DNA of 64,000 bases from a virus, in IMG/VR virus record IMGVR_UViG_3300045988_156843; one strand, given 5' to 3'. This document shows positions 11,798-52,870 of this stretch, piece by piece. Under the pieces are notes generated by a model. That model was given only the letters and a program-made list of their open reading frames with translations. It was not told the origin of the DNA and did no database searches. Within the stretch, counting starts at the first letter, position 1; every line of letters begins with the position of its first letter. A program made the position numbers and the translations under genes.

Positions 11798-13744
11798 ATG
11801 GAAATAATCAAAGACATAGCAGCTACGCAAGAAGTTGAATGGGGCACTCTAGCAGATGCAATTGATAGGAATTTCAATGAAGCATCTACAGGAATTCAAA
11901 CAGTTGCTCAGAAGGTGGATCTTCTTGACATGGCTTCTCCAAACTATTGTGTGGGAGAATGGCAAAATGGAGAATTAAGTCCTACATCAGTTAATACGAT
12001 TGGTGATACAAGTATACTTGACAAATGGGATTTCTATCTAATAGATACTACAGACAATACAGGTGAGACTAATCATCCTGTAGGAAAATTGAAAAGAAAC
12101 AATCTTCTTCGATTTGTAGACGGTAGTTTTGCTCCTGTTATTGGAATCACAGAAGCTATGAGAGCCGAATGTGATGTTGAACTGTATTTAGATAATACCC
12201 AAACAAATAAATACTGTGATGCAGGGGCATTTGATGCAGAAGCATTCTATAATCAATATGGGATGACGCAGAAACTCTACAATGCGACAGGTGAAGAAGT
12301 TCGTATTTTACGACCTTATGAGACCACTGAAACTAAATATACAATAGGTTTAGGAAGAGCAGATAAGATTTATCTATTAGATAACGTTGTCGGAAAAAGT
12401 GGGAAAAGATGGAAAGGGATATTTGCAAGTCCGACAACATGGGATGGAATAGATACAACTCTTTGGGGGCTTGATCCGACTGCCATATCTCCTTGTCCTG
12501 TATGCACTATTGGCAATAAGACACGTTCTTTCTTTTATGTATATGAAGGTGAATCTAATTGTAAATCTTCAAATGGTATAAATAATCGTTGTACGATGTT
12601 TAGTAACGGAAGAACATATCCAAGAGTTAATGATATGAATCAAGTCAACGACATGACGTGGAGTCGTGCAAATAATGCAGATCCCGATGCACCTTATCCT
12701 TTTGCAGAAGGAGGATATCATGCGTTGAATACTTTCATCAATTGTTTGGAAATTCGTTATGGAACTAAATATCTACACAAGGAATCATTATTTTCCGGTG
12801 GTATTTGTTCTAATGATTCTGTAAGCGAAGCAGGATGGACAAAGACGGGAGGCATTCGTTACAAAAAGACGGCAGATAGCACATGGAAATACGCTAATTG
12901 GAATACGACTCCATCGGATATGTTCTATAATGCTAGTGGGGGTAAGACTAATATGAATGAATTCCTAAGTAATTATTGTCCTAAAGAACAATGTATGGAG
13001 AGTCAAATGGCAGCATCGTTTGCCGTTGAGACTGGAGTGCAGGAAGGTGAAGAATTTGAATTCTATGGAGCTACCTATTATTACCGCAATATAGTGGATA
13101 CAAAAGGATTAGCTGATGGAGAAATGAATGTAAAGGTATATAAGAAGATGTCTCAAACATTTAATGCATATGACGAGTTGGGTGCAGAAACATCTTTTGA
13201 TGTAGAAGTAATCTTGCGTATGGCTTTATATGCAGGTGCTAATTTATCCGGTGATGTATTTGCTTACTGCGGAGGAGGATATGAACAGGTTGGAACATGT
13301 GTGAATGCTGCTTCAGCATCTGTTAACAATCCAGTTGATATTTATTTGGAACCGGATCAAAAAAAATGGTTGAAAGAAACAAGTGTAACTAAAACCAATC
13401 TTGGTACTTTTGATTTTGAAAAATCCTATATGAAATTAGGCAGTAGTACAAACTTGGGAGATAGTTACGCAAAAGAGCGAGAAAATTATGCTGCATGGAA
13501 GACTGCAAAAGGCGGTAGTCTGTCAACTGGAGAATGTTATTATGCTTGGGATAACAATTATTGGAGTAGTACAGCTATGCAGCGTGTTAGAATTGCGGCT
13601 CGGTTTCGTGGTCATGCTTATTCTGCTGTTTGCTCGCCTCGTAATTTGTATGCGCATTACGCTGCTTCTAATGCGACTCGTAACATTGCCGGGTTTGCCC
13701 AAGTTAGGATATCAGTAAACGCAGTTCCGATGCAATCGGAATAA
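11798..13744 (+). CDS. DGR target protein (tail fibre / receptor-binding candidate) with C-terminal variable region
   Basis: 648 aa. The last ~50 codons are the VR copy of the TR, and the C-terminus ...CSPRN...GFAQV is consistent with CLec-fold DGR targets. Confidence 0.85.
   Translation: MEIIKDIAATQEVEWGTLADAIDRNFNEASTGIQTVAQKVDLLDMASPNYCVGEWQNGELSPTSVNTIGDTSILDKWDFYLIDTTDNTGETNHPVGKLKRNNLLRFVDGSFAPVIGITEAMRAECDVELYLDNTQTNKYCDAGAFDAEAFYNQYGMTQKLYNATGEEVRILRPYETTETKYTIGLGRADKIYLLDNVVGKSGKRWKGIFASPTTWDGIDTTLWGLDPTAISPCPVCTIGNKTRSFFYVYEGESNCKSSNGINNRCTMFSNGRTYPRVNDMNQVNDMTWSRANNADPDAPYPFAEGGYHALNTFINCLEIRYGTKYLHKESLFSGGICSNDSVSEAGWTKTGGIRYKKTADSTWKYANWNTTPSDMFYNASGGKTNMNEFLSNYCPKEQCMESQMAASFAVETGVQEGEEFEFYGATYYYRNIVDTKGLADGEMNVKVYKKMSQTFNAYDELGAETSFDVEVILRMALYAGANLSGDVFAYCGGGYEQVGTCVNAASASVNNPVDIYLEPDQKKWLKETSVTKTNLGTFDFEKSYMKLGSSTNLGDSYAKERENYAAWKTAKGGSLSTGECYYAWDNNYWSSTAMQRVRIAARFRGHAYSAVCSPRNLYAHYAASNATRNIAGFAQVRISVNAVPMQSE
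13593..13705 (+). repeat. DGR variable repeat (VR)
   Basis: Aligns to 13848-13960 at a constant offset of 255. There are 12 mismatches in 13593-13703, all at TR adenines, plus 2 A->T at the 3' edge. Confidence 0.9.
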
Positions 13745-13760
13745 AGGGGATGCAATCCCT
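13725..13760 (+). promoter_or_regulatory. twin hairpins just 3' of VR (ttccgat-gca-atcggaa; gggat-gca-atccc)
   Basis: Two adjacent stem-loops share the core gatgcaatc and straddle the stop codon at 13742-13744. They are absent after the TR. Confidence 0.5.
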
Positions 13761-13847
13761 GCAAATCCTATAGACATCTGATAAGTTATGCAATGGGACA
13801 TAACCTCTAAAACAGATTGGATAGGTTGAAATAATGGATAAAGAGTT

Positions 13848-13960
13848 TTGCGGCTCGGTTTCGTGGTAATGCTAATAATGCTAATTGCTCGCCTCGTAAT
13901 TTGAATGCGAATAACGCTGCTTCTAATACGAATCGTAACAATGCCGGGTTTGCCCAAGAA
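13848..13960 (+). repeat. DGR template repeat (TR)
   Basis: Non-coding copy of the VR with 12 AAY codons when read in the VR frame, located 145 nt upstream of the RT ATG. Confidence 0.9.
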
Positions 13961-14104
13961 GGTTCTTTTATTATCGTCAAACTCTTTATTCGTGTCTTGG
14001 AACGACAAATTATTATAAGACAATGTACTTGTGGATACATTTTGTATTTGAGAAGTACGGTAGTGGAAATAAACATTACCTTTTATGCCCAACTTGCTAT
14101 AAAA

Positions 14105-15478
14105 ATGAAAAATAGAATAGTTGACATATTTGATAATATTACAGAAAAGGATGTAAATCTTGCGATTGATCGTGCTATTCATAAACATATGAATAAAAGA
14201 GAAGTCATATCCTTTTTAGACAACAGACCGTCTAATTGCAAACAATTATATTCCGCATTAAAAGATGGATCATACATTAATATATTATCATATAAATATT
14301 TAGAAAAGACAAATAAAAATGGTAAAGACAGGGACATCAGTAGTCCAACATTAGAAACTAGGATATACCAACATTTACTATTAAATTTGTTAGAACCTAC
14401 ATATTATCAGAAAGACAATAATTATGGTTTAAATTGCAAAAAGAAATCCGGTATAACTGCAACTGATAAAAAAAGATCTGTTGTACATAAGATGAAAAAT
14501 ATCTTTTATGATCGATTGGATTTAAGTTATTGTTTAGTGATAGATCAAAGGAAGTGCTACGAACATATTAAGGAGAAATATTTCAGGAAAGCTATAAAGA
14601 AAATAGTTGCTGATAAAAAACTGATAGATTTTGCCGTAAATATATGTTTTGTAAATAATAAACTTCCGATTGGAACGCCAACTTCACCATTTGCTCATCA
14701 TATCTTGATGTTATCTTTTGATTATTTTGCAAAGAGTTTAACAAAAGAATGTGTAAGATACGCTGATGATAACTTTTTAGCTTTTCATACTAAAGAGGAA
14801 GCTCAACAGGCTAAATGGAGAATCAAGAACTTTTGGTGGTATGAATTAGGGATGCGTGCTAAAAGACATACAGTTAAAATACAGCCATTATCTATTCCTT
14901 TAGATTTTTGTGGCTATAAGTATTATAGAAATAACAATTCAAAAACTTCTCATAATAAAGGATATACAAAAATTAGAAAAAGAGTAGCTGACGATGCCAA
15001 ACGCTGCAATAATGATAGAAGTTGGGGATCTTACTTCGGATTATTAAAACATGCAGACACATGGTCATTAATGCGCAAAATAGAAAATAAAATGAGACTT
15101 ACGGAACTTACTAACAAGATCAAGATTGATCGCAAAATGGATGCTAAGAATATCCTTCCTAAAGAATTACTAGGCGAGGTTATATCCATTTATGAATATG
15201 AGATTAGATATGATTCTAAAGGCAATGCCAATTGGATTAAATGTTTAATTGGTATGGATGAAAAGGATGAAGATGGAGAATCTACTGGGAGAACAATCGC
15301 AAGAGAATTTCATGGAAACTTTCAAGGGATCATACAATATATTATCTTGTGCGAAAAGGCTTTTGGAAAGAAACAATTATTACCTTTGGAAGATGTTGAG
15401 ATTGAGAATCAATGTGGATACATATTCAAAGGAAGTACTAATCAATTAGAATATATAAGTAAAGATGAGAACAATTAA
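14105..15478 (+). CDS. DGR reverse transcriptase with C-terminal extension
   Basis: Motifs VIDQRKCYEHI (A), LPIGTPTSP (B), YADD (C) and FCGYKY (E). The track ORF start at 13901 merely translates the TR; the first plausible ATG is at 14105, giving 457 aa. Confidence 0.9.
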   Translation: MKNRIVDIFDNITEKDVNLAIDRAIHKHMNKREVISFLDNRPSNCKQLYSALKDGSYINILSYKYLEKTNKNGKDRDISSPTLETRIYQHLLLNLLEPTYYQKDNNYGLNCKKKSGITATDKKRSVVHKMKNIFYDRLDLSYCLVIDQRKCYEHIKEKYFRKAIKKIVADKKLIDFAVNICFVNNKLPIGTPTSPFAHHILMLSFDYFAKSLTKECVRYADDNFLAFHTKEEAQQAKWRIKNFWWYELGMRAKRHTVKIQPLSIPLDFCGYKYYRNNNSKTSHNKGYTKIRKRVADDAKRCNNDRSWGSYFGLLKHADTWSLMRKIENKMRLTELTNKIKIDRKMDAKNILPKELLGEVISIYEYEIRYDSKGNANWIKCLIGMDEKDEDGESTGRTIAREFHGNFQGIIQYIILCEKAFGKKQLLPLEDVEIENQCGYIFKGSTNQLEYISKDENN

Positions 15479-15866
15479 TTATGTAGCTATTCCGGCTTTT
15501 GAATCGGAAGATATTAATAGAGATAAAACTGAATGGAAAAACGGTCAGTGTATTTCTATAGACGAAGGGAATTTTGTGACTTTATACATTGGTCATCATA
15601 CTGAAGAAACGATAACTCTTGAGAATGGTTCTGAATATACTCCCATGAAAGCATTTCCTATTAGAGTCATGAAACCAGTAAACAGGGATATGGCTATTAA
15701 CGCAGCAGAGATGGAAGCTTATTGCCTTAATTCTGCAATGGAAGTAGCTAGCTTTTCTGCTTCAATGGCTCGGAAACATCGTGAGAATCCAAAAGATCAG
15801 GAAGTAAAAGAGCATGATGCATTTATATCTTGGGTGAAAGAAGAATTAACAAAAATAGGATATTAA
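15465..15866 (+). CDS. hypothetical protein translationally coupled to RT (possible DGR accessory)
   Basis: 133-aa ORF overlapping the RT 3' end by 14 nt, with a helical C-terminal half. No Avd signature recognised. Confidence 0.5.
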   Translation: MRTINYVAIPAFESEDINRDKTEWKNGQCISIDEGNFVTLYIGHHTEETITLENGSEYTPMKAFPIRVMKPVNRDMAINAAEMEAYCLNSAMEVASFSASMARKHRENPKDQEVKEHDAFISWVKEELTKIGY

Positions 15867-15883
15867 CTTAAAAATTAACAATT

Positions 15884-16228
15884 ATGAAATATATCGTATT
15901 TCCGGTAAAGAAATTAAATGAAGTACCACAGGAGATTCTTGATGAATTACATTTAGTTCCTCGCAAAAACAATAATGGGACTGAAGTAATAATGAAATTG
16001 AGTCATTATGAATTACTCTTTCCTGTTGCTGCATTACTTCCATTGACTGATGATGAGACTCCACTTGAGCCTGTGTATCCATATCCGGTATATGAAAATG
16101 AAGAATTATCAGCCTTATTGTCATCATCCGAATGGTCGGGAGAGGAGGTTATAGCTCCTGTTTTGGAAACTATATCACCTAAGACGTCTACGAGATCAAC
16201 AAAATCCAAGAAAACTACTGTATTATAA
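15884..16228 (+). CDS. hypothetical protein
   Basis: 114-aa ORF, co-oriented. Confidence 0.5.
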   Translation: MKYIVFPVKKLNEVPQEILDELHLVPRKNNNGTEVIMKLSHYELLFPVAALLPLTDDETPLEPVYPYPVYENEELSALLSSSEWSGEEVIAPVLETISPKTSTRSTKSKKTTVL

Positions 16229-16238
16229 ATTTATTTGT

Positions 16239-16246
16239 TATCTTTG
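16239..16246 (+). promoter_or_regulatory. -7 box TATCTTTG
   Basis: Matches TAnnTTTG, 29 nt upstream of the ATG at 16275. Confidence 0.4.
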
Positions 16247-16274
16247 TATACAATAACGAATAATATATTTCTGT

Positions 16275-16643
16275 ATGGATTGGACAAACATATTAATGTT
16301 GATATTCGGTAGTGGTGGGGCTATTGCCGGAGTTTCGTCTTGGATTAAGACAAGACCGGAAAAGATATCTTATGAAATAAAGAATCTTCGGGAAGTTATA
16401 GATGAAGTGAAAGAAAATCGTGAAGAAGACAAAAAAGAGTATGAGAACAACAAACTAAAGTTGGAGAGAAGATTAGGGGAAATGGAAATTAGAAATTCAG
16501 TTTTAGAGAAATCGATTCAACAATGGTTTAAATGTCATCACTTACCGCAAAATGGAATTTGTCCAGTCGCAGATTTTGTAGATAAATCAGAAGAACTCAT
16601 AAAGAAAAGAGTTGATGAGATAAATGCAAAGAAACAATTATAA
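16275..16643 (+). CDS. membrane-anchored coiled-coil protein
   Basis: N-terminal hydrophobic helix ILMLIFGSGGAIAGVSSWI followed by a charged helical region. Confidence 0.55.
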   Translation: MDWTNILMLIFGSGGAIAGVSSWIKTRPEKISYEIKNLREVIDEVKENREEDKKEYENNKLKLERRLGEMEIRNSVLEKSIQQWFKCHHLPQNGICPVADFVDKSEELIKKRVDEINAKKQL

Positions 16644-16647
16644 AACA

Positions 16648-16679
16648 TGCCCGGCAGTCCAAAAGGAATCTACCGGGCA
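16648..16679. terminator. hairpin terminator (possibly bidirectional)
   Basis: tgcccgg(c)ag...ct(a)ccgggca stem with T-rich tracts on both sides. Confidence 0.55.
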
Positions 16680-16750
16680 CTACGTTTTATTTCATAAATT
16701 AAAAGTTCTCATTTGCAAATATAGATATATATTCGAATATAACAAATAAA

Positions 16751-19700
16751 ATGGTCGAAAAACTCTCAATATTTTCATTGGGACAGGACGGTAGCAAAAC
16801 TCCTTTCCCTAACAATGGAGCACAAGCTGTAATAGCTGACTACCAATTTGTATCCGGGAGAATGGGTTCAATTAGCCTTTCGGCTACTTTAATGTATCCT
16901 CGTTGTCTTGATAATGAATGGGATGAGACACAGTTTGTTGAATTTAGGGGAGAAAAATATTATATCTTCACCACTCCTTCTTCTTCCAAATCCAATACCG
17001 ATTTAAGATGGAAGCATGACCTTGTATTTACTTCAGAAAGAATTCAGCTTGACAATACATATTTTTATGATGCGGTATCATCTGATGCTGCCAATATAGA
17101 TCAATACGTTAGTAATAGCACTAAGTTCACATTTTATGGTGATATAAATGAGTTTGCTAAACGTATGAACTATTCTTTAAAATATTCAGGTCTAAAATAT
17201 TCCATTGTTGTAGATGAAGGAATTAGCTCAGAAGGTAAACTGATGACTTTTGAAGATAAGTTTTTCAGTGAAGTCTTACAGCTAGTTTTTGAAACATATG
17301 AATTACCATATTATTTTGCAGGCAGAGTAATACATATTGGATTTTCCAGTAATGCGATAACTCAGACATTTAAATATGGGCATGACAACCAACTCCTTTC
17401 AATCACTAAGACAAACGCTAATTATCGTATAATTAATAGATGTACGGGTGTTGGTAGTGATGAGAATATTCCATATTACTATCCGAATGATAATCCAAAA
17501 GGAGATATAGGCGTACAAGCTGATGCAAATAATACTGCAATTAAACAAGCGGACATTCGGATTTCTGACAAAGATTTGTTTGCAGAGAAGGTAAATATAA
17601 ACGAGACTATAGAATATCGTGAAGGTGAAGCCGCAAATGCATATAGCTATAATTTGTGGTCTGACACTGGAATGCAGTATCAATATACTCTTAAGAATCA
17701 AGTAGAAATCCCACGTGTTGAAGTAATAAATACTGTTCCAAAAACAGGAGTATGGAAGGGGACTATCCGGATGCGATTAAAAATGTATCGTGAAGGAAAG
17801 ATGAGAGTGGGAATTCAGCCATTAATGAGACGGGTTTGGAAGAATGCAAATCCCCCTACCAAAGATTGGCAACCCGAAGGTCTTGAAATGAAATTTTCAG
17901 ATGCGGAAAACAACAACCTGACTTATACAAAGTTAAATACATGGGATTATAGTTTAGGTGATCTTGCAATAGGAGAATATAATTTAGATTTTATATTTCC
18001 ATTCCAAACCAATGAGTTTATAGACTATTATAAAGTCTATGCTGTCATTAAAGCAATCAGCATTGGATATGATGGCAAATATTGGTTTTTAAATAATGCG
18101 GTAGTATCTCTTCCTGCTATTGGTATTAGTATTACTAAAACTCCTGCTGTGGGAGATAAGTTTAAGCAAATTGAATTAAAGACAGATTATATTCCATATG
18201 CTCAGAATCTGATGCCTCCTATCTATAGAGAGAGCAAGGGATTGCAGCACTTTTACAATGCTAAGAATAATACATATAAGATTCCCGGTACAAATGAATA
18301 TTATACGTTTGAAAACGAATATACTGAAGGGAATCCTAAAGAAATAATTGTAAAATTTGAAAATATTAAACCTTCAATTAAGGGAGTTAGGAATGCTGCC
18401 GGACAATTGATTGGAGAGATTGCGGCTATTGCATTTGACGATGAGGATAATGACGAATTAGATAAAAAAACAAATGCATATCTACATCCATATTTCTATG
18501 TAAAATTAAGGAAGACAGATGGTACATATGGATTCAATCTATTCGAGCAAGGTATTTCAAGCGGTGAGATGACTCTTTCCATGACAAGTGGTAAATGTGC
18601 TGCTTGTAATTTCATAGTAGAAGTAAAAGAGGAAGGTGAAGGTGAAAAAGCAATATTTCAGAATCCAGTACAAGTTGATAGCAATGGAAATATTGTTCCC
18701 GGTAACGCTGCAGAGAAAATTAACAAAAAAAATATTCAGGAAAGACAGCAGAATACTAGGACAAATGAAGTTTGGTTAGCTTTAAAAAAAGATGATTCGA
18801 CTTTCAATATAGTTATGCCTAATGAAACGAATAACTATAAGCCGGAAGCCGGAGACTCTTTTGTTATTCTAAATATTAAGCTACCACAAGCATATATATT
18901 AAGCGCAGAGAACGATCTGAAAGAAGAGATCATTCGATATATGGCTCAGAACAATAGCGAAAAATTTAATTTCTCAATAACATTTAGCCGTATATATTTA
19001 GAAAATCATCCGGATATTCTTGCTCAATTAAATGAGAATGCTCGTTTGCAAATTGAATATAATTCTCAAAAGTATGAATTATATGTATCTAATTATACAT
19101 ACAAAGTTTCCAATAATGAGATATTGCCGGAAATTACTGTTGAGCTTTCAGATACGATTACAATACGAAAGGGAACATTACAAAAATCTATTTCCGCAGT
19201 CCAACAAAGTCTATTAAGCACTATCGGTTCTATTGACTTTCTGAAAATGGGATTAAAATACTTTCTTCGTAAAGATGTGCCTGATACTGCATTAGAACAT
19301 ATTACATTTAATGATGGCATTCTTGTAAGAGGTAAAAATGCCATTATTGAAGAATCAGCCAATGTTATATATGAGGAAGACGGTAATGCTATCTATGAGG
19401 AATATTCAGAACCTATAATGCCTATAGCTGAGGCTAATACATTAGGATCTCTTGATAATGTAGATGCTATTGTTGATGGGACTGTAAACGATAAAGTTCT
19501 TCTTGTTAAGAATCCCGGAAGTACGCAGTGGACTCAGGAAAAAATGTCCATCAATGTGGATAGTATTATCTATATATCTACACAGACATTATTGGATAGT
19601 ACTAGAACGACAGATTTAACTTTGAGCGCAGAAGATCATCAGGCAATTATCAAACTCTATGGAGATAAAAATGTATCCAAAAATACAGTTGTTTATAGAG

Positions 19701-20572
19701 GGAAAGAGAAACTAGGAAATCAGTATTTGGTAGCTCTTTCAATGTATGCCAATTTTTCTATCATTCCTGCATCTGAAGAAGGTGTCATGGATGTAGCTTA
19801 TGTAAATCCGTCAGACGGTTTTCTTTATGCATTTAAAATTAAAACAAATGAAAATCGCAGTATTGCTACCGTTCCGGAAAAGAAATCAAGTGGAGGAGAA
19901 ATTATCATTGATAGTGCTCTTTCTACAGAATCAGAAAATCCGGTAATGAATAAGATCATAACTCAATATATTAATGAGCTTATGGATGCTGTATTCCAAA
20001 TAAGTATGACTTCTTTTAGTGGAGGAGGCACTTATGAAATCGGAAGCAGTACAAAACCTGTATTGAGTTGGGTTATTAAAAGAAAAGGAGAAGAGGTTAA
20101 TCCTACCAATGCAACTGTGAACGGTAACAAGGAAGGTGTAGCGGCTAATTTTAAGTCTTATACATCTCCGGTTGAAATTACATCTAATAAATCATATACT
20201 GTAATAGCATATTATAATTCTCAATCAGTGACTAGATCGGCATCATATTCATTTCTCAGTAAAAAGTATTTTGGAGTTTCTCCAAATACGACTTTGACAA
20301 ATGATGAAATATTAGCATTAAGCGGATGGGCATGGGCTAATAGTAGAACTATGAGCGAGTCCCTATTTGATTGCACAGGGGGTCGTTATCCATATTATGT
20401 AATTCCTGCAAGCATTTATTCAGGACTTGAAGTATGGGTAGGTCAGTTTAGAAATACAGACATAGTTGTTACTGATCAAAATGTAGTCAATGCACAAGGT
20501 TATACGGTAGCTTACAAAGTTGTGAGATTAAATACTATACAGTACGGTAAATTATACATATCATTCAAATAA
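16751..20572 (+). CDS. very large tail/baseplate-associated protein
   Basis: 1273 aa. It shares a FLRKD...ITFN.GI...WTQE module and one DSALST.S.NP..NK.IT motif with the downstream fibre. Confidence 0.6.
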   Translation: MVEKLSIFSLGQDGSKTPFPNNGAQAVIADYQFVSGRMGSISLSATLMYPRCLDNEWDETQFVEFRGEKYYIFTTPSSSKSNTDLRWKHDLVFTSERIQLDNTYFYDAVSSDAANIDQYVSNSTKFTFYGDINEFAKRMNYSLKYSGLKYSIVVDEGISSEGKLMTFEDKFFSEVLQLVFETYELPYYFAGRVIHIGFSSNAITQTFKYGHDNQLLSITKTNANYRIINRCTGVGSDENIPYYYPNDNPKGDIGVQADANNTAIKQADIRISDKDLFAEKVNINETIEYREGEAANAYSYNLWSDTGMQYQYTLKNQVEIPRVEVINTVPKTGVWKGTIRMRLKMYREGKMRVGIQPLMRRVWKNANPPTKDWQPEGLEMKFSDAENNNLTYTKLNTWDYSLGDLAIGEYNLDFIFPFQTNEFIDYYKVYAVIKAISIGYDGKYWFLNNAVVSLPAIGISITKTPAVGDKFKQIELKTDYIPYAQNLMPPIYRESKGLQHFYNAKNNTYKIPGTNEYYTFENEYTEGNPKEIIVKFENIKPSIKGVRNAAGQLIGEIAAIAFDDEDNDELDKKTNAYLHPYFYVKLRKTDGTYGFNLFEQGISSGEMTLSMTSGKCAACNFIVEVKEEGEGEKAIFQNPVQVDSNGNIVPGNAAEKINKKNIQERQQNTRTNEVWLALKKDDSTFNIVMPNETNNYKPEAGDSFVILNIKLPQAYILSAENDLKEEIIRYMAQNNSEKFNFSITFSRIYLENHPDILAQLNENARLQIEYNSQKYELYVSNYTYKVSNNEILPEITVELSDTITIRKGTLQKSISAVQQSLLSTIGSIDFLKMGLKYFLRKDVPDTALEHITFNDGILVRGKNAIIEESANVIYEEDGNAIYEEYSEPIMPIAEANTLGSLDNVDAIVDGTVNDKVLLVKNPGSTQWTQEKMSINVDSIIYISTQTLLDSTRTTDLTLSAEDHQAIIKLYGDKNVSKNTVVYRGKEKLGNQYLVALSMYANFSIIPASEEGVMDVAYVNPSDGFLYAFKIKTNENRSIATVPEKKSSGGEIIIDSALSTESENPVMNKIITQYINELMDAVFQISMTSFSGGGTYEIGSSTKPVLSWVIKRKGEEVNPTNATVNGNKEGVAANFKSYTSPVEITSNKSYTVIAYYNSQSVTRSASYSFLSKKYFGVSPNTTLTNDEILALSGWAWANSRTMSESLFDCTGGRYPYYVIPASIYSGLEVWVGQFRNTDIVVTDQNVVNAQGYTVAYKVVRLNTIQYGKLYISFK

Positions 20573-20578
20573 ACAGTC

Positions 20579-23500
20579 ATGGCAGATATACCCGGAACCA
20601 ATGTCGCCTCCATGATAACTCCGTTTACAACGCAGGATATCATCGCTACACATAGTGAAACATATGGACAAGGAGGCTATAGAAGTGAGAAAACAGTTGC
20701 AGATATGAACGCAATTATTGCGTCCCGTAGAAAAGAAGGTATGATTGTTCATGTCTTAGATGAAGACAAGGATTATATCTTAAAGGACGGTAAATTTGTT
20801 GTGAAGACAAGTGAGGTCATTGTCGATTCAGCATTGAGCACTACTTCTCTTAATCCCGTTCAAAATAAAGTAATTACCAATGCTTTAGATTCCAAACAAA
20901 ACTCTTTGGTTAGCGGAACTAGCATAAAGACCATTAATAGTGTATCTTTGTTAGGTTCCGGCAATATAAATATACCTGTTATAACAGTAGATAGTGCAAC
21001 AAGTTCTACATCTACAAATCCTCTACAAAATAGGGTTATAACAGCTTCCATTACTGATATAAATACTAAATTAACGCCAATATCTACAGCATGGAACAAG
21101 AAAAATACAGCTAATGGTTTTCTTGTATTGGATACAGCAGGATTAGTTCCTAGCAGTAATCTTCCTTCCTATGTCGATGATGTATTGGATGTGTATGCTA
21201 CATATGATCAATCAGCAACTGGAACTATATCAAATGTTAAATTATATACAGATTCATCTAAAACGATTGCAGTAGTTCCGGAAACAGGAAAGATATACAT
21301 TGATGTTTCATCCGGCAAACCTCCATATCAATTCAGATGGTCAGGTACAGCATATGTTACATTGAATACCGGAGGACTTATTATTGGTACTATATCCGGT
21401 ACAGCATTTGATGGTGGAAAAGGACAAGAATTATATTCTGAATATGCAGGAAGCCGAAAAACTATTTATCAAAGAGCATATTCCTTCTTCAATGCCATTA
21501 CTCCTGCTTCAGATAAATTCATGCAAAATATATCAGCATCTTATACTGCCACTGCCATATCACTGACTAAAGCATATAAGAACTTTGCAGGGACATCATC
21601 ATCAGAATCATTAACTATAAATGCTGCTACTACAAGTAATGCAGGAGTAATGTCTGCAGCAGATAAAACTAAGTTAGATTCATATCAAGCCTCAACAGGA
21701 GCTACTCCGAATTCAATTGCCAAGAGAGATGAGAATGGAGACCTTACAATGCGGTATCCAATTACTAATGCCGGAGTAGATAATAGCTCATCTATTGATT
21801 ATGTCGTATATATAAGCAATTCTGCTACAAAGTTTATGAGACATTGTTCATTGTCTCATTTTACCGATGTAATGCGATTGGTTACAACAACAAGTAGAGG
21901 ATTAATGTCTCCGGCTGACAAAAAGAAACTGGAAGATATTGATACAGAGAAATTCCTTCGAAAAGATATTGATGATATAGCAAATGGAAATATTACTTTC
22001 AATAATGGTATTTATGTGAAAGGTTCATATGCTAACCTTCAATCAATTTTTGAACAAGGAGGAAATTCTATCCTTGAACAAGGAGAAAACGGGATTATAG
22101 AAACAGCAGAGACACAAGCAGCACCAACTGATATTACATTAGCTGATTTAGCTAATGTTGATGGCACAGTTAACGAACCTGCATACAAGAGGATGATTTT
22201 AACTAAACTTGCCGGAGCTACGACATGGACACAAGAATACATTGATCCTCTTATTGAAATTACAGAAGCTCCTAGCAATAATTTATATTATGCTAGAAGA
22301 AATAAAGCATGGGTTAATTTTACTCCTTTTTCCGGTAATTATTCAGATTTATCGGGAAAACCGACTATTCCTACTAAATTAGCAAATCCATATGCATTAA
22401 CCTTTTCCGGAGCAGTAACTGCAACATATGACGGATCAGGCGCAGTCAATGTAAATATACCTGTCGGTGGAGGAGGTGGTGGCGGAAGCGTTATCGTAGA
22501 TAGCTCTCTTAGTACAACTTCGGTAAATCCTGTACAGAATAGGGTTATAACAAATGCTATTAATAATGCCAATAGTAGCATACAAACCAATGCTGATAAT
22601 ATTGAAGCGATAATGGCTATTATCGCCAATATACCATCTATAAGTATAGATACTGCATTGAGCACAACAAGTACCAATGCTGTTCAGAATAAGGTGATAA
22701 CTGCCGCCTTAAATTCCAAACAGAATACACTTGTGTCAGGTACTAATATTAAAACGATTAACAGTCAAAGTATTGTAGGATCAGGAAATGTCAATCTCAC
22801 TTATTCTTTTTCTCAGATAACTTCTAAACCAACTACCTTATCGGGATATGGAATTTCGGATGCATATACAATGACGCAAGTAAACAATGCCTTTGTATCT
22901 TTAAGCGGAAATGTAATTAGAACATCAGGGAAGCTATCAATGGCAGCAGACGTATTTGCAGATGATGGCTCCACAGGTGGTCTTGATATGAGAAATTCGA
23001 ATATTGTAGGTGTAAATGGTATATATTTTAAAGATGCATCAGATAGTGACGGTGAATATATCAATTTTTACAGAGATTCTACTCATGTTGATTCTTTATA
23101 TGCATTAAATGGAGAATTACGATTTAAACCTAATAGAGTATTAGGTGCTATAACGACTGCATCAAATATAATTCTTCATACGGGGAATTATACATCATAT
23201 GTACCTACAAAAACAGGGACGGGAGCAACAGGGACTTGGGCAATAAGCATTACAGGAACAGCCGAGTTATCTAAAGCTACAAATTTAATCAATGGATCAT
23301 ATACAGGAAGTGGAGGAAAACAACCGCCATCTTATATACCATCAGGGAAGATTAGATTTAACATGATGAATACTGTTGTTGGTACTGACTCTAACTATAA
23401 GGATTTCATATTAATGGACAGTTATACTGGTAATGATGTTCCTTATGTTACTGCAATTGGAGTAAGAAAAACTTCAACTCCTGAAGCATATATAATGTCA

Positions 23501-25546
23501 GGTGCAAAAGGCAATACAACAGAAGCTAATTGGGTTAAGACTACTTTATTAAGTGCTCTTAACTACAATAACTATGCACCATCTAAAACCGGATTAGGTG
23601 CTAGTGGCACATGGAATATTAATGTATCAGGATCAGCAGCCTCAGTTGCATGGGTAAATGTTTCCAATAAACCTAATTTTGCAGCAGTTGCAACTTCCGG
23701 TTCATATAATGACTTAACTAATAAACCTACAATTACAAATATAACAGTTGACTCAGCCTTATCGACTACTAGCACTAATCCATTGCAAAATAAAATTATC
23801 ACTACTGCACTAAATGGCAAGCAAGCAAATCTTGTTTCGGGAACAAATATTAAGACTGTAGGAGGACAGAGTCTACTTGGAAGTGGTAATATTGCATTTC
23901 CTACAATAACTGTTGATTCTGCTTTAAGTTCCACTTCAACGAATCCTTTGCAAAACAAGGTAATTAATAGTCAATTTGAATCTGTTACTACAGGAATGCA
24001 GTTAATTATGAATTTATACAATGAGATTAAAACAAGTGCTTTAACCTCTTCTAGTGTTGTTACGTCTATTACTACAGAAAATAGTGATAGTACATCACTA
24101 GTAACATCTGTTAAATCCGTTGTTAGCTATATAAGTGATAATTTAATTGATCCTATAACTCCTATACTTACGGCTTATCTAACTCAAAATACCAAAAATG
24201 GTATGTTGATTTTGGATTCAAATGGTAAAGTTCCTAGCAATTTATTGCCGGGCACATTGTTAACATTAGGAACAACATCTACTACGGCTTTTAGAGGTGA
24301 TTATGGTAACATCTTATTTACTAACTTTGGATCGGGAACAAATCTAACAGGTACTCAGCGTGCTAGAAACTTCTTTGGAAAAATTGATGTTTCTAATTTA
24401 CATTTCTTATCAGGTGGTTATACTTGGACACAAACAGATTCAGAAATAGAAATAGAATTTGAACAATATAATTTTACTGGTACTAAAAGTACATCCTCTC
24501 CTTTGATTAATTTCCCAATAGCTACAACAGCGAAAGCCGGACTACTTGGAGGAGATCAATGCTCTTATTTAGTTTCTCTTAATACCGAATACAATAATAT
24601 AGCAAATAAAGCAAATTATATAAAGGCTAGAAAGTTTTTTGGTAGCATAAATACCTCTACTGAATATTATTTAACTTCAGCTATAACTTTAAGTACTGAT
24701 GCAAATGTGATCGATATTGAGTTTCCTAAACATAATTTTGATGGAAGCAATGAAGAATATGAATATATCACTCTTCCTGCTGTTACATTAAATAACGCAG
24801 GAATATTAACATCTACCCAATTTACTAATTTATCAAATAAACAGGAGAAATTAGTTTCCGGCACAAGTATCAAAACCATCAATGGGCAATCATTATTGGG
24901 AAGTGGTAATATTAATATTTCAGGTGGGGGATTGAACTCATATACAACTACTCTTGATATTTTTAATATATCAAATGGTCGAACTATTACTTCTACAGAA
25001 TTTGCAGAAGTAGGAAGAATTGTGACGGCTGTAAGAGAAGGAAAACAAATATTATATAACTATCAGGTGGCTGAATTTGGTACAGGAGTATTAAACTGCC
25101 ATTTAGCGGATGATTTAACTTGTCTATCATGGGTAGTTACAAGTTATACTGATACTGAAATATTCTATATCGATCCAACATTATCTACTGATAAATGGGC
25201 AAGAATATCATTAGTAAAATCAGATTTTTCAAATATAACTTCCAAATCCTTCGGCTCCTCATCAAGTTACTACAAGCTTCCGGATGGGTTGCTGATTCAG
25301 TGGGGGTATAGCACTAATTCAGGTATAGGCAAAGTGATATATTATCCAATATCCTTTTTTAATACTTATTACTCTGTGCATTTAACTGGAACTAGATCTG
25401 TACACAGTAATTACATATATTCTTTTGATATATATACTAAAAGTGTAAGCTCTTTCACAATGGATTCCGTTTATCAGAACGTTGATTCAGATGCCGGAGG
25501 ATTTAGCATAGCTTTTTACTGGTTTGCTATTGGTAGATGGAAGTAA
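20579..25546 (+). CDS. tail fibre protein with switchable C-terminal tip
   Basis: 1655 aa with a Gly7 linker and at least 6 copies of the VDSALSTTS.NP.QNKVIT motif. The C-terminal ~80 aa begin at the LPDGLLIQWG boundary inside inverted repeat IR-L. Confidence 0.8.
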   Translation: MADIPGTNVASMITPFTTQDIIATHSETYGQGGYRSEKTVADMNAIIASRRKEGMIVHVLDEDKDYILKDGKFVVKTSEVIVDSALSTTSLNPVQNKVITNALDSKQNSLVSGTSIKTINSVSLLGSGNINIPVITVDSATSSTSTNPLQNRVITASITDINTKLTPISTAWNKKNTANGFLVLDTAGLVPSSNLPSYVDDVLDVYATYDQSATGTISNVKLYTDSSKTIAVVPETGKIYIDVSSGKPPYQFRWSGTAYVTLNTGGLIIGTISGTAFDGGKGQELYSEYAGSRKTIYQRAYSFFNAITPASDKFMQNISASYTATAISLTKAYKNFAGTSSSESLTINAATTSNAGVMSAADKTKLDSYQASTGATPNSIAKRDENGDLTMRYPITNAGVDNSSSIDYVVYISNSATKFMRHCSLSHFTDVMRLVTTTSRGLMSPADKKKLEDIDTEKFLRKDIDDIANGNITFNNGIYVKGSYANLQSIFEQGGNSILEQGENGIIETAETQAAPTDITLADLANVDGTVNEPAYKRMILTKLAGATTWTQEYIDPLIEITEAPSNNLYYARRNKAWVNFTPFSGNYSDLSGKPTIPTKLANPYALTFSGAVTATYDGSGAVNVNIPVGGGGGGGSVIVDSSLSTTSVNPVQNRVITNAINNANSSIQTNADNIEAIMAIIANIPSISIDTALSTTSTNAVQNKVITAALNSKQNTLVSGTNIKTINSQSIVGSGNVNLTYSFSQITSKPTTLSGYGISDAYTMTQVNNAFVSLSGNVIRTSGKLSMAADVFADDGSTGGLDMRNSNIVGVNGIYFKDASDSDGEYINFYRDSTHVDSLYALNGELRFKPNRVLGAITTASNIILHTGNYTSYVPTKTGTGATGTWAISITGTAELSKATNLINGSYTGSGGKQPPSYIPSGKIRFNMMNTVVGTDSNYKDFILMDSYTGNDVPYVTAIGVRKTSTPEAYIMSGAKGNTTEANWVKTTLLSALNYNNYAPSKTGLGASGTWNINVSGSAASVAWVNVSNKPNFAAVATSGSYNDLTNKPTITNITVDSALSTTSTNPLQNKIITTALNGKQANLVSGTNIKTVGGQSLLGSGNIAFPTITVDSALSSTSTNPLQNKVINSQFESVTTGMQLIMNLYNEIKTSALTSSSVVTSITTENSDSTSLVTSVKSVVSYISDNLIDPITPILTAYLTQNTKNGMLILDSNGKVPSNLLPGTLLTLGTTSTTAFRGDYGNILFTNFGSGTNLTGTQRARNFFGKIDVSNLHFLSGGYTWTQTDSEIEIEFEQYNFTGTKSTSSPLINFPIATTAKAGLLGGDQCSYLVSLNTEYNNIANKANYIKARKFFGSINTSTEYYLTSAITLSTDANVIDIEFPKHNFDGSNEEYEYITLPAVTLNNAGILTSTQFTNLSNKQEKLVSGTSIKTINGQSLLGSGNINISGGGLNSYTTTLDIFNISNGRTITSTEFAEVGRIVTAVREGKQILYNYQVAEFGTGVLNCHLADDLTCLSWVVTSYTDTEIFYIDPTLSTDKWARISLVKSDFSNITSKSFGSSSSYYKLPDGLLIQWGYSTNSGIGKVIYYPISFFNTYYSVHLTGTRSVHSNYIYSFDIYTKSVSSFTMDSVYQNVDSDAGGFSIAFYWFAIGRWK
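25235..25306 (+). repeat. IR-L of candidate invertible segment
   Basis: Perfect 72-bp reverse complement of 25790-25861, checked base by base. Encodes ...ITSKSFGSSSSYYKLPDGLLIQWG. Confidence 0.95.
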
Positions 25547-25789
25547 TTATTTCCAATTACCTATAGCTAACCATGTGAAATTCCATGCTGTTTCATTAAC
25601 ATTGCCGCCTTGTGCTATATATCTAGTTAAAACAGAAAACGAAGAACCTGATCTAGAGTAAAACATAGGAGAATATACGATTTTTTCCGTTTGATTAACA
25701 GCTTCTCCCGTGAATTGTATAGTATAATATGCAGTTTTAAAAGTAGTAGGCATATATATAGTTTTAATACCTGCTCCACCTGCAATTGT
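25547..25789 (-). other. silent alternative tail-fibre tip cassette (80 codons + stop, no own ATG)
   Basis: The minus-strand reading frame continues in phase out of IR-R (LIQWG|TIAGG...WLAIGNWK). It shares anchor residues with the expressed tip (TG, SSF, W.AIG.WK). Confidence 0.8.
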
Positions 25790-25861
25790 CCCCCACTGAA
25801 TCAGCAACCCATCCGGAAGCTTGTAGTAACTTGATGAGGAGCCGAAGGATTTGGAAGTTAT
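25790..25861 (-). repeat. IR-R of candidate invertible segment
   Basis: Perfect 72-bp inverted copy of 25235-25306. Confidence 0.95.
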
Positions 25862-25896: not shown

Positions 25897-26451
25897 ATGA
25901 TGTATTGGAAACAAGGCTTTTACGATGAACCTGTAGAGGGAAGCCTAGAAATAACAGATGAATACTGGCGAGAGCTTTTGACTGGGCAGGAGAATGGTTT
26001 GGAAATCCATGAAGATTCTAATGGGTATCCAATGCTGAGACAACATGTATATACTTTAGAAGAAGCAGTACAAATGAAGGAAATAGAAATTAATGCTTAT
26101 GACTCTTCTGACAAGGTAAACTGTTTTATACTTGATGGGGAATCCGGATGGCTTAATAAAGCAGATCGAGCAGGATTAATCAACTCTATTAACATAGAAA
26201 AAGATGCAGGAAGAACCGAAACAAAAATTTGGTTTAACAATAAAAAACATCCTCTTCCAGTAGATTTTGCTTTAGATATGATTAAAAAAATAGAATTATA
26301 CGCTATTGACTGCAATGATACGACTGAAGAGCATTTGGCTATTATAAAAGAATTTGCTACTGTTCAACAAGTACAGACATTTGATGTTACTAAAGATTAT
26401 CCTGAAATATTAACGTTTAAAAGTAAAAAAGATGAAGAAAGTATTTTATAA
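25897..26451 (+). CDS. hypothetical protein (tail-fibre chaperone position)
   Basis: 184-aa ORF immediately after the invertible segment. Positional inference only. Confidence 0.45.
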   Translation: MMYWKQGFYDEPVEGSLEITDEYWRELLTGQENGLEIHEDSNGYPMLRQHVYTLEEAVQMKEIEINAYDSSDKVNCFILDGESGWLNKADRAGLINSINIEKDAGRTETKIWFNNKKHPLPVDFALDMIKKIELYAIDCNDTTEEHLAIIKEFATVQQVQTFDVTKDYPEILTFKSKKDEESIL

Positions 26452-52100: not shown

Positions 52101-52126
52101 AAATGTTTTATTTACAATATAATACA

Positions 52127-52870
52127 ATGAAAGCAGTATATATTCGTTGCTCAACAGATAAACAGGATTTTTGTCAGCAACAGCATTGTATAAATCAATA
52201 TTTAGAACGAATAAATGAACCGACCGATTTATATACAATTCAGGAAAAAGTATCAGGAACGGTTAAACATACAAAGAGAAAACTACATGAACTATTAGAA
52301 CTTTGCGAGAAAGGGTCTACTATCTATATATCAGAGCTTTCCCGTCTAGGAAGAAGCATGAATGATTTATTTTCCATAGTAAGTTATGCAGGAGAAAAAG
52401 AAATTACTTTAATCCAATGCAAAGATGGAACGACTATAGAAAATAAATCAATAGGCGGAAAAGCATTATTATTTGCATTATCTTTAGCGGCAGAAATAGA
52501 AGTAGAGAATAACAGGCAAAGAACGAAAATGGGAATTGCTGCTAGAAAAGCTAGGAATGAGGCTGTAGGCGGAACGGATGAATTGTGGGGAAAGAATACA
52601 GGAGCTAATAGAGTAGAAGTAATGGAAAGGATGAGAATTGTTTCTGTGGATAAAAAGAAAGAAAATGCACGCAAGAATCCTAATAACATCCACTTTTGGA
52701 TTTTTATTCAAAAATGGATGAGGAATAATCCCGAACCGAAATCTTGCGAAACATGGCAGATAATAGCTGATGAATTGAATGAATTTAAATTCAAGACATC
52801 AACAGGTCTAGAATATAATGCAAGTCGTGCAGCAGCAATGTATCGTAATTTAAAAAAGATAATGCAATGA
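52127..52870 (+). CDS. small serine recombinase (resolvase/invertase family)
   Basis: AVYIRCSTDKQ (catalytic Ser region), YISELSRLGRS, E..NRQRT..G, and a C-terminal HTH-like ETWQIIADELN...TGLEYNASRAAAMY. Trimmed to the ATG at 52127. Confidence 0.8.
   Translation: MKAVYIRCSTDKQDFCQQQHCINQYLERINEPTDLYTIQEKVSGTVKHTKRKLHELLELCEKGSTIYISELSRLGRSMNDLFSIVSYAGEKEITLIQCKDGTTIENKSIGGKALLFALSLAAEIEVENNRQRTKMGIAARKARNEAVGGTDELWGKNTGANRVEVMERMRIVSVDKKKENARKNPNNIHFWIFIQKWMRNNPEPKSCETWQIIADELNEFKFKTSTGLEYNASRAAAMYRNLKKIMQ

What the first reader, a model, noticed from the sequence alone, without database searches (positions are those of the whole stretch)
11798..25861. Two mechanistically unrelated diversification devices in one host-recognition module
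Within about 14 kb the phage carries two devices. One is a DGR that hypermutates up to 27 adenine-templated positions in the tip of one fibre-like protein. The other is a binary DNA-inversion switch on the tip of a second, much longer fibre. Graded mutagenesis and discrete switching on different receptor-binding proteins suggest a two-receptor adsorption strategy under strong host surface variation, which is a well-known feature of Bacteroides capsules and surface proteins.
Basis: inference. Interest (0 to 1): 0.7.

Follow-up and report, generated by a model that had tools for sequence, protein, structure and literature searches.

The report
Gut phage with hypermutating and invertible receptor-binding tips
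An uncultured human-gut tailed phage of about 85 kb diversifies two tail proteins in two known ways, an active reverse-transcriptase hypermutation system on one and a flip-flop DNA segment that swaps the tip of a long fibre on the other; public metagenomes show both at work, but the pairing is the only unusual part.

Summary
Both devices are real and both vary in natural populations.

**DGR.** The TR (13848-13960, 27 adenines in its first 111 nt) and the VR (13593-13705, at the 3' end of a 648-aa gene) differ only at TR adenines. A 457-aa RT lies at 14105-15478. Ten related genomes carry ten different VRs. 24 of 27 TR-adenine positions vary, against 6 of 84 other positions. The target models confidently as a DGR-type C-type-lectin protein that resembles phage receptor-binding and tail-fibre proteins.

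**Inverton.** A perfect 72-nt inverted repeat (25235-25306 / 25790-25861) brackets two stop-to-stop Gp53-like_C tip cassettes. Inversion swaps the last 79-80 residues of the 1655-aa fibre in frame. Flipped genomes exist in three lineages. One pair of samples carries a 100% identical 484-nt stretch (segment plus its IR edge) in opposite orientations. About 97% of assembled contigs show the window's orientation. The silent cassette is under purifying selection (dN/dS about 0.27).

**Unresolved.** The enzyme is not identified. The only recombinase in the window, a Gin/Pin-like serine recombinase, lies 26 kb away. A relative that lacks the inverton keeps it. Homologous recombination is a serious rival.

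The two-receptor and Bacteroides-capsule reading is untested. Each device is a known kind.

The parts
11798..13744 (+). DGR target gene, 648 aa. It has an N-terminal helix of about 44 residues followed by a large globular domain with a C-type-lectin fold. The VR encodes residues about 599-636. Probable receptor-binding protein.
   Evidence: AF2 model with a 36-sequence alignment: pLDDT 92.5, pTM 0.88. Best PDB match is TaqVP, a DGR variable protein (5vf4, probability 0.99); Mtd gives a local match. BFVD matches are named 'Receptor binding complex' and 'Tail fiber protein', TM 0.65-0.73. 279 representative homologues carry the domain; in the listed matches it ends at the C-terminus of proteins of up to 2385 aa. 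3 of 20 long homologues carry Phage_fiber_2 repeats.
13593..13705 (+). Variable repeat (VR).
   Evidence: 12-14 mismatches to the TR, all at TR adenines. Ten distinct VRs in ten distinct related genomes.
13725..13741 (+). Hairpin TTCCGAT-GCA-ATCGGAA, 20 nt downstream of the VR and ending just before the stop codon. It occupies the position of the DGR target-recognition hairpin.
   Evidence: DNA fold of 13700-13760: -8.9 kcal/mol, z = -3.1. Its function is inferred from the BPP-1 paradigm.
13848..13960 (+). Template repeat (TR), in the gap between the target gene and the RT gene. 27 adenines in its first 111 nt, including 12 AAY codons.
   Evidence: Only 4 TR variants occur among the 10 genomes.
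14105..15478 (+). DGR reverse transcriptase, 457 aa.
   Evidence: PF00078 at 2e-11, phrog_1423 at 3e-33. YADD motif present. The start codon was set by comparison with called genes in L032 and L117.
15465..15866 (+). 133-aa ORF that overlaps the end of the RT gene. Unknown function. It is the only candidate for a DGR accessory protein, and that role is not supported.
   Evidence: No Pfam, NCBIfam, PHROG or PDB match.
16751..20572 (+). 1273-aa tail-module protein lying between the two devices.
   Evidence: phrog_19846 and phrog_17422, plus a weak ricin-B lectin hit.
20579..25546 (+). Long tail fibre, 1655 aa, shown here with tip A expressed.
   Evidence: PF21882 Gp53-like_C at residues 1566-1653. 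Internal repeats of the motif VDSALSTTSTNPLQNKVI (family D1). The exact protein is present on 4 public contigs.
25235..25306 (+). Left arm of the perfect 72-nt inverted repeat. It encodes ITSKSFGSSSSYYKLPDGLLIQWG (fibre residues 1553-1576).
   Evidence: It is 100% conserved in nearly all related contigs.
25307..25546 (+). Tip cassette A (79 aa plus stop), the expressed cassette in this window.
25547..25789 (-). Tip cassette B (80 aa plus stop), silent in this window. It abuts cassette A stop-to-stop.
   Evidence: In frame with the fibre after in-silico inversion. PF21882 at 3.7e-8. dN/dS of 0.25-0.29 between B alleles. It is found fused to the full-length fibre in P0018/L032 and P0435/L117.
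25790..25861 (-). Right arm of the 72-nt inverted repeat.
25897..26451 (+). Tail-fibre-assembly-like protein, 184 aa. It lies outside the invertible segment, so both tips would share it.
   Evidence: phrog_188, tail fiber assembly protein, 2.5e-5. A homologue (36% identity) follows the fibre gene directly in L113, the relative without an inverton.
26870..28819 (+). A further tail-fibre-like protein, 649 aa, in the same block.
   Evidence: phrog_33450, tail fiber protein, 1e-19.
52103..52870 (+). Serine recombinase, 255 aa, catalytic motif YIRCSTDKQ. It is the only recombinase found in the window and the candidate trans-acting invertase.
   Evidence: PF00239 at 1e-25. Best NCBIfam model is the Mpi master invertase, but below its cut-off. 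phrog_125, DNA invertase, 4e-33. Best PDB match is Gin (4m6f, 3e-8). Some sources name it 'DNA invertase Pin-like'.

Best explanation
The window is about three quarters of an uncultured human-gut siphovirus genome of roughly 82-87 kb. Its late-gene block downstream of terminase and portal holds two independent diversifiers of host recognition.

(1) A canonical DGR. The RT (14105-15478) copies the TR transcript with adenine-specific errors. The cDNA replaces the VR at the 3' end of a 648-aa C-type-lectin receptor-binding protein. Twelve AAY codons allow up to about 15^12 peptide variants. The TR/VR adenine pattern and the population-level VR diversity are shown here. The retrohoming steps are inferred from the BPP-1 paradigm.

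(2) A minimal two-cassette inverton. Reciprocal recombination inside a perfect 72-bp inverted repeat flips a 483-bp segment that holds two tail-to-tail Gp53-like_C tips. The 1655-aa fibre therefore ends in tip A or tip B, and one shared assembly protein is encoded just outside the segment. The in-frame alternative, natural flipped genomes and purifying selection on the silent cassette are all shown here. The crossover lies within the 72 bp, because the sequences just outside the arms stay with their flanks.

The catalyst is inferred, not shown. I put about 45% on the phage's own Gin/Pin-like serine recombinase (52103-52870) acting in trans from 26 kb away. I put about 35% on homologous recombination, about 10% on a host invertase, and the rest on something else. 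On top of switching, strains exchange cassettes: at least four tip classes occupy the two slots.
For: DGR:
- All VR/TR mismatches fall at TR adenines, at codon positions 1 and 2.
- In 10 distinct genomes there are 10 VRs but only 4 TRs. 24 of 27 adenine positions vary, against 6 of 84 others. Mean pairwise difference is 16.5/111 in the VR, 2.7/111 in the TR and 6.4/300 just upstream.
- RT domain with YADD. Hairpin 3' of the VR. C-type-lectin fold like TaqVP and Mtd.

Inverton:
- Perfect 72-nt inverted repeat and an in-frame swap. Both tips match PF21882.
- Flipped state seen in L032 (P0018, 2 contigs), in L012, and in L117, an 85.7-kb contig that crosses both arms.
- L011 and L012 come from different samples. 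They share a 100% identical 484-nt stretch (the segment plus its IR edge) in opposite orientation, on 99% identical flanks. L032 and L002 show the same pattern at 98.5%.
- The silent cassette is always an intact ORF, with dN/dS of 0.25-0.29 at dS of 0.43.

Recombinase:
- It is the only recombinase in the window. Its catalytic serine motif is intact, and its closest matches are DNA invertases (Gin, Mpi, phrog_125).
- No other inverted-repeat target was found around it, in the window or in 24 related contigs.
Against: - No recombinase lies within 10 kb of the inverton, unlike Mu, P1, e14 and p15B.
- The 72-nt repeat has no dyad symmetry above chance (7 of 12 positions; 77% of shuffles do as well). 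It has no gix- or hix-like site.
- A clade relative (contig 128536, loci L055 and L113) keeps the recombinase at 75% identity, yet its fibre runs straight into the assembly gene with no silent cassette or inverted repeat. The recombinase therefore has, or also has, another role.
- Only about 4 of roughly 145 contigs are flipped. Two of the flipped contigs end inside the distal repeat arm, so an assembler effect cannot be fully excluded for those two.
- No Avd-like accessory protein was recognised for the DGR.
- About 9 kb of the genome was not examined for other recombinases.
Confidence: 0.75

Rival explanations
1. The same two devices are present, but the fibre-tip segment flips by general homologous recombination between the 72-bp perfect repeats. 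This would use host RecA or phage recombination functions during replication. Flips are rare, and a flipped variant becomes dominant only under selection by the available host. The serine recombinase does something else.
For: - The repeat is long and perfect, which is more than a recombinase site needs, and it has no dyad-symmetric core.
- The two arms stay identical to each other while adjacent cassettes differ at dS of 0.2-0.43. This fits homology-driven exchange or conversion.
- Orientation is strongly skewed (about 97:3), as expected for a low flipping rate.
- The recombinase is retained in a relative that has no inverton.
- The phage encodes an SbcC-like recombination or repair protein.
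Against: - Flips recur in three independent lineages.
- The layout looks designed: cassettes stop-to-stop, and the repeat placed exactly at the domain boundary.
- The silent cassette is under purifying selection, so switching must be frequent enough to expose it to selection.
- The phage carries an invertase-like gene with no other visible substrate.
- P1 and the hsdS invertons show that long repeats also occur in enzyme-driven systems (from established knowledge).
Confidence: 0.35
2. A host-encoded invertase, acting in trans during infection or carriage, flips the segment. Candidates are the Bacteroidales Mpi-type serine invertases or Tsr-type tyrosine invertases.
For: Bacteroidales have global invertases that act on many distant loci (established knowledge; cited in PMC13501310 and PMC9881135). 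No phage recombinase lies next to the inverton.
Against: The repeat does not contain the Mpi consensus (ARACGTWCGT, from memory), as checked by reading the sequence. The host is not identified. The phage has its own invertase-like gene.
Confidence: 0.1
3. The inverton is not a working switch. The reverse-strand cassette is a relic duplication or a donor for occasional gene replacement, and the 'flipped' contigs are assembly artefacts or old fixed rearrangements.
For: Two of the three flipped contigs (L012, L032) end inside the distal repeat arm, and one has only 2.5x coverage. More than 95% of contigs share one orientation.
Against: - L117 is an 85.7-kb contig that crosses both arms in the flipped state and is collinear with the window elsewhere.
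- Different samples hold identical or near-identical segments in opposite orientations.
- The silent cassette is intact in every genome, with dN/dS of about 0.27.
Confidence: 0.05

Closest known systems
Bordetella phage BPP-1 DGR (Brt, TR, and VR in mtd). Related gut-phage DGRs include Hankyphage, Bacteroides uniformis siphophages and crAss-like phages.
   Same: RT plus TR, with adenine-only substitutions copied into a VR at the 3' end of a C-type-lectin receptor-binding gene. AAY codon design. A GC-rich 3' end shared by the repeats, and a hairpin after the VR. Diversity is visible between genomes.
   Different: Gene order here is target-TR-RT, with no recognisable Avd. The target is a 648-aa protein with a domain of about 600 aa that matches no Pfam model. 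RT motif 4 reads IGTPTSP rather than the usual ...SQ.
Invertible tail-fibre segments of Mu (G/Gin), P1 (C/Cin), e14 (P/Pin) and p15B (Min).
   Same: Inverted repeats inside the fibre gene mark the boundary between a constant part and alternative C-terminal parts that lie in opposite orientation. Inversion changes the receptor-binding tip. A Gin/Pin-like serine recombinase is encoded by the phage.
   Different: The recombinase is 26 kb away rather than adjacent, and it has a non-Hin-like C-terminal region. The repeat is 72 bp and perfect, with no gix-like dyad. Only about 80 residues are swapped. The cassettes abut stop-to-stop. A single assembly gene lies outside the segment, instead of one per orientation inside it.
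Tail-fibre shufflon of BV01-like Phocaeicola vulgatus phages (preprint PMC13596623, 2026), and Rin or R64-type shufflons.
   Same: A Bacteroidales-type gut phage alters the distal end of a tail fibre by DNA inversion. Several configurations are seen in natural populations at unequal frequencies.
   Different: BV01 has three cassettes separated by 10-bp motifs and a flanking recombinase. Here there are two cassettes, one long repeat pair and no flanking recombinase. No DGR is described in that element.
Gene-altering programmed inversions in bacteria (hsdS invertons; the survey in PMC9881135).
   Same: Long coding-sequence inverted repeats that exchange the C-terminal specificity domain of one expressed gene with a promoterless silent copy.
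   Different: The protein family and setting differ: this is a phage virion protein. In those systems the recombinase is usually encoded next to the locus.

Membership tests
Diversity-generating retroelement | TR/VR pair whose differences are confined to TR adenines | tested here: met
   14 of 14 mismatches fall at TR adenines and none elsewhere, over 113 nt.
Diversity-generating retroelement | Reverse transcriptase encoded next to the TR | tested here: met
   PF00078 and phrog_1423 match, and YADD is present. Placement in the DGR-RT clade was not tested by phylogeny. Motif 4 is atypical (IGTPTSP).
Diversity-generating retroelement | VR at the C-terminus of a ligand-binding (C-type-lectin or Ig) target protein | tested here: met
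   The AF2 model (pLDDT 92.5) matches TaqVP 5vf4 (probability 0.99) and Mtd locally.
Diversity-generating retroelement | Accessory variability determinant (Avd or HRDC) | tested here: not met
   The 133-aa ORF 15465-15866 and its neighbours give no Avd or four-helix-bundle hit in Pfam, NCBIfam, PHROGs or PDB. A divergent Avd cannot be excluded.
Diversity-generating retroelement | Target-recognition elements at the 3' end of the VR (IMH plus hairpin) | tested here: inconclusive
   A GC-rich GCCGGGTTTGCCCAAG ends both repeats, and a 7-bp-stem hairpin lies 20 nt after the VR (z = -3.1). Their function was not tested.
Diversity-generating retroelement | Ongoing diversification | tested here: met
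   Ten genomes carry ten VRs. 24 of 27 adenine positions vary, against 6 of 84 others.
Gin/Cin/Pin/Min invertible tail-fibre segment | Inverted repeats that bracket alternative fibre C-termini which are in frame after inversion | tested here: met
   Both tips match PF21882.
Gin/Cin/Pin/Min invertible tail-fibre segment | Both orientations occur | tested here: met
   L012, L032 and L117 are flipped. Identical or near-identical segments occur in opposite orientation in other samples.
Gin/Cin/Pin/Min invertible tail-fibre segment | Serine invertase encoded adjacent to the segment | tested here: not met
   The only recombinase is at 52103-52870, 26 kb away. There is none in the 10 kb upstream of the window.
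Gin/Cin/Pin/Min invertible tail-fibre segment | Dyad-symmetric crossover sites of about 26 bp (gix, cix, hix) | tested here: not met
   The best internal dyad is 7 of 12, reached by 77% of shuffles.
Gin/Cin/Pin/Min invertible tail-fibre segment | Orientation-specific assembly genes (U and U') inside the segment | tested here: not met
   A single assembly-like gene lies at 25897-26451, outside the repeat.
Gin/Cin/Pin/Min invertible tail-fibre segment | The recombinase catalyses the inversion | not testable with these tools
   This needs a genetic or biochemical assay. Co-occurrence argues weakly against an exclusive link, because L113 has the recombinase but no inverton.
Multi-cassette shufflon (R64 Rci, Rin, BV01-like) | Three or more cassettes separated by short repeated sites, with a flanking recombinase | tested here: not met
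   Each genome has two cassettes and one repeat pair. Multi-cassette arrays of the same tip domain do exist in unrelated phages, L040-L049.

The most novel reading that the evidence does not exclude
This phage species runs a three-tier host-range system in one gene block. The tiers are DGR hypermutation of a lectin-type receptor-binding protein, an 'orphan' fibre-tip inverton, and population-level replacement of tip cassettes (at least four classes over two slots) using the same 72-bp repeat as the exchange point. The inverton has no adjacent invertase. It would be flipped either in trans by a clade-wide serine recombinase with an unusual C-terminal domain or without any dedicated enzyme. The two variable proteins would recognise different host surface layers.
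Probability: 0.3. Interest if true: 0.65.

Novelty: new member of a known kind. Interest (0 to 1): 0.5.

Why it matters
DGRs and invertible fibre tips are usually described as alternative routes to phage host-range plasticity. In the held paper library, they appear only in different phages (for example PMC8778435). I found no paper describing both in one phage.

A widespread human-gut phage, present on well over 100 public contigs, uses both on different tail proteins. It therefore offers a natural system for asking how graded and discrete receptor-binding variation are combined. The two read-outs, VR sequence and segment orientation, can be scored jointly from ordinary metagenomes.

The inverton also lacks a neighbouring recombinase. 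This makes it a test case for trans-acting or recombinase-independent inversion in phages.

The practical point for annotation is that the 86-aa or 68-aa 'hypothetical protein' called downstream of the fibre gene is a silent alternative fibre tip.

Tried and rejected
- **Nearest GenBank phages.** Megablast of 9-29 kb against GenBank phages found nothing. The nearest isolates share only 24-35% portal identity.
- **Search with tip B**. It returned only silent cassettes, because full-length fibres cluster at 90% with the A-tip representative. Exact-sequence cluster look-ups solved this.
- **Co-occurrence of recombinase and inverton.**
  - Scans with the tip alignment found unrelated phages with multi-cassette arrays but no recombinase homologue within 10 kb.
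  - Scans with the 649-aa and 1273-aa tail proteins found only near-identical genomes.
  - The fibre N-terminus is a mosaic module and led to an unrelated myovirus.
  - Helicase-anchored loci reached the fibre end in only one distant relative, L113. The others (L104, L106, L107, L111, L115) stop short of it and are uninformative.
- **Genome contigs.** The repeat pattern gave no hit.
- **Structure.** Single-sequence AF2 of the target was useless (pLDDT 34).
- **Tentaclins.** Considered and rejected for the target, because tentaclins have an N-terminal lectin domain followed by Ig domains (PMC10743442).
- **Recombinase site in the repeat.** A hix- or gix-like half-site resemblance (GGTTGCTGAT) was dismissed, because the other half does not match and there is no dyad symmetry.
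- **Palindromes outside the arms.** The 13-bp palindromes just outside both arms cannot be the crossover site. They stay with their flanks in flipped genomes.
Full report
**What the window is.** The window holds terminase (5743-7368), an SPP1-type portal (7920-9461), then a long plus-strand block of tail and host-recognition genes. Replication genes follow on the minus strand: a DnaB-like helicase, a beta clamp and a C5 methylase. An early region on the plus strand follows. A 1907-aa tape-measure gene lies just upstream of the window in related contigs. Related public contigs are 82-87 kb and circularly permuted. They come from human-gut metagenomes. No GenBank phage is close: megablast found nothing, and portal identity is at most 35% to Bacteroides, Parabacteroides and Phocaeicola phages. 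Recombinase relatives sit on 50-75 kb contigs binned with Bacteroidales MAGs. The host is therefore probably in the Bacteroidales, but this is only inferred.

**The DGR is real.** The direct repeat 13593-13705 / 13848-13960 differs at 14 positions. Every one is an adenine in the downstream copy, at the first or second codon position. That copy (the TR) has 27 adenines in its first 111 nt, including 12 AAY codons. The upstream copy (the VR) ends 39 nt before the stop codon of a 648-aa ORF. The TR lies in the gap before a 457-aa reverse transcriptase at 14105-15478, which has an RVT_1 domain, a phrog_1423 match and a YADD motif. A 7-bp-stem hairpin lies 20 nt after the VR. No second VR exists in the window. 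No Avd-like protein was recognised.

**The DGR is active.** Nineteen loci from related contigs reduce to ten distinct genomes. These carry ten different VRs but only four TR variants. 24 of 27 TR-adenine positions vary among the VRs, against 6 of 84 other positions, and three of those six sit at TR polymorphisms. Mean pairwise difference is 16.5/111 in the VR, 2.7/111 in the TR and 6.4/300 just upstream of the VR.

**The DGR target.** Pfam and PDB sequence searches found nothing. An exhaustive HMMER search found 279 representative homologues. In the listed matches the domain of about 600 aa ends at the C-terminus of proteins of up to 2385 aa. Three of twenty long homologues carry Phage_fiber_2 repeats at the N-terminus. 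With a 36-sequence alignment, AlphaFold gave pLDDT 92.5. The best solved match is TaqVP, a DGR variable protein with a C-type-lectin fold, and Mtd gives a local match. The best viral matches are named 'receptor binding complex', 'tail fiber protein' and 'tail collar fiber protein'. Calling it a receptor-binding protein is reasonable. Calling it 'fibre-like' is looser.

**The inverton is real.** The arms 25235-25306 and 25790-25861 are perfectly complementary over 72 nt. No other inverted repeat in 64 kb comes near this. The 483 nt between the arms hold the last 79 codons of the 1655-aa fibre gene (tip A). Abutting it stop-to-stop on the other strand are 80 codons of an alternative tip (tip B). 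In-silico inversion gives an in-frame 1656-aa fibre. Both tips match PF21882 Gp53-like_C. A tail-fibre-assembly-like gene follows just outside the right arm.

**Both orientations exist in nature.**
- All six IMG/VR contigs, and all informative metagenome contigs but one, have the window's orientation.
- L012 joins the fibre side to a third cassette type, C. L011, from another sample, has the same flank (99% identical) and a 100% identical 484-nt stretch (the segment plus its IR edge) in the opposite orientation.
- In the fibre's 90% cluster, 14 of 15 listed variants (46 contigs) end in tip A. P0018 (2 contigs) is a full-length fibre ending in tip B.
- The contig carrying P0018, L032, shows the whole segment reversed. 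The segment is 98.5% identical to that of the unflipped L002.
- P0435 is a 1656-aa fibre with a B-class tip on an 85.7-kb contig (L117). That contig crosses both arms, has a fourth, A-class-like cassette (D) in the silent slot, and is otherwise collinear with the window.
- Silent-B ORFs are recorded on about 141 contigs. So roughly 3% of assemblies are flipped.

The crossover lies within the 72 bp, because the sequences just outside the arms stay with their flanks in L117.

**The silent cassette is maintained.** It is an intact ORF ending AIG[RN]WK in every genome. B alleles differ at dS 0.43 with dN/dS of 0.25-0.29. Cassettes are far more diverged between strains (dS 0.2-0.43) than the flanks (1-2%). 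The 72-nt repeat is essentially invariant. This points to cassette replacement with the repeat as one exchange point.

**Who flips it?** The only recombinase in the window is a 255-aa serine recombinase at 52103-52870. It matches Resolvase, has the motif YIRCSTDKQ, and is closest to Gin, the Mpi model and phrog_125 'DNA invertase'. Full-length homologues at 48-83% identity sit on 70-86 kb phage contigs. No inverted repeat lies near the gene in 24 related contigs.

Four points count against a dedicated role:
- It is 26 kb from the inverton.
- The repeat has no dyad symmetry above chance.
- Contig 128536 keeps the recombinase at 75% identity (L055), but its fibre, with a single Gp53-like tip, runs straight into the assembly-gene homologue. 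There is no silent cassette and no inverted repeat (L113).
- About 9 kb of the genome was not inspected.

I therefore rate the phage recombinase acting in trans as the most likely catalyst (about 45%). Homologous recombination across the 72-bp repeat is close behind (about 35%).

**Comparison with known systems.** The DGR is a standard BPP-1-type element. The inverton works like Mu G, P1 C, e14 P or p15B Min. It fails three of their defining features: an adjacent invertase, gix-like sites and paired assembly genes. A fibre shufflon has been described in BV01-like Phocaeicola phages (PMC13596623). Tail-fibre genes are enriched among programmed inversions (PMC9881135). In the held library, shufflons and DGRs are reported in different prophage clades (PMC8778435). 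No paper describing both in one phage was found.

**Verdict.** Each device is a new member of a known kind, and the pairing is the only unusual part. The two-receptor and capsule interpretation remains speculation.

Noticed in passing
L040 9100-12500; L041 6400-9400; L049 7500-10950; also L042-L048: Unrelated gut-phage contigs carry arrays of 4-6 Gp53-like_C tip cassettes on both strands. In L040 two facing 176-aa ORFs, in the position of assembly genes, sit in the middle. High-identity inverted repeats are present, for example 120 nt at 95% in L041 and 68 nt at 97% in L049. The layout resembles multi-cassette Min or shufflon-type fibre switches. No homologue of the window's recombinase lies within 10 kb.
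   Followed up: partly
L117 14657-15286 (ERZ28622055 scaffold_96): A fourth tip cassette class, 'D' (YSVGYSSVTNLYFPVSF...FYWFAIGRWK), occupies the silent slot while a B-class tip is expressed. L012 carries a third class, 'C' (75 aa). Tip cassettes are therefore exchanged between strains as well as inverted.
   Followed up: partly
window 25547-25789 and its alleles in L002, L006, L015, L016, L019: Within the B1 lineage, all 1-4 differences between alleles are nonsynonymous and none is synonymous. This hints at recent diversifying selection on the mostly silent tip, but the counts are small.
   Followed up: no
window 25217-25229 and 25867-25879: Perfect 13-bp palindromes sit just outside both repeat arms, at the same offset: AAAATCAGATTTT, and AAAATACTATTTT read on the other strand. 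Their central bases show compensatory changes. They stay with their flanks in flipped genomes. They could be a protein-binding site or a chance feature of AT-rich sequence.
   Followed up: no
L055 and L113 (IMGVR_UViG_3300045988_128536): A clade relative keeps the serine recombinase (75% identity) but has a single-tip fibre followed directly by the assembly-gene homologue, with no inverton. The recombinase is a conserved early gene of the clade, and its primary role may be something other than fibre switching.
   Followed up: yes
window 14105-15478: RT motif 4 reads LPIGTPTSPF. It ends in SP, as in group II intron RTs, rather than the SQ usually cited for DGR RTs. Adenine-specific mutagenesis is nevertheless evident.
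   Followed up: no
L024 (IMGVR_UViG_3300045988_161124) 182-454: One related contig has a VR-TR spacing of 253 nt instead of 255. This puts the distal VR out of register. It is either a frameshifted VR or an assembly artefact in a hypervariable region.
   Followed up: no
window 25544-25549: The two tip cassettes abut with no spacer (…TGG AAG TAA|TTA TTT CCA…). Transcription of the fibre gene must therefore read antisense through the silent cassette to reach the downstream assembly-like gene. No terminator was looked for.
   Followed up: no
window 47500-52100: A strand-switch and GC-skew turning point lies near 48 kb. It has an AT-rich palindrome (48254-48312) and is followed by a run of very small plus-strand ORFs that lead to the recombinase. 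This is possibly the early-gene control region or origin.
   Followed up: no
L052 (IMGVR_UViG_3300045988_162030) 1654-3129 vs 14729-15995: This related contig has long-range inverted repeats of 300-360 nt (85-87%), 13 kb apart, around the recombinase region. The other relatives lack them. It may be a chimeric or rearranged assembly.
   Followed up: no
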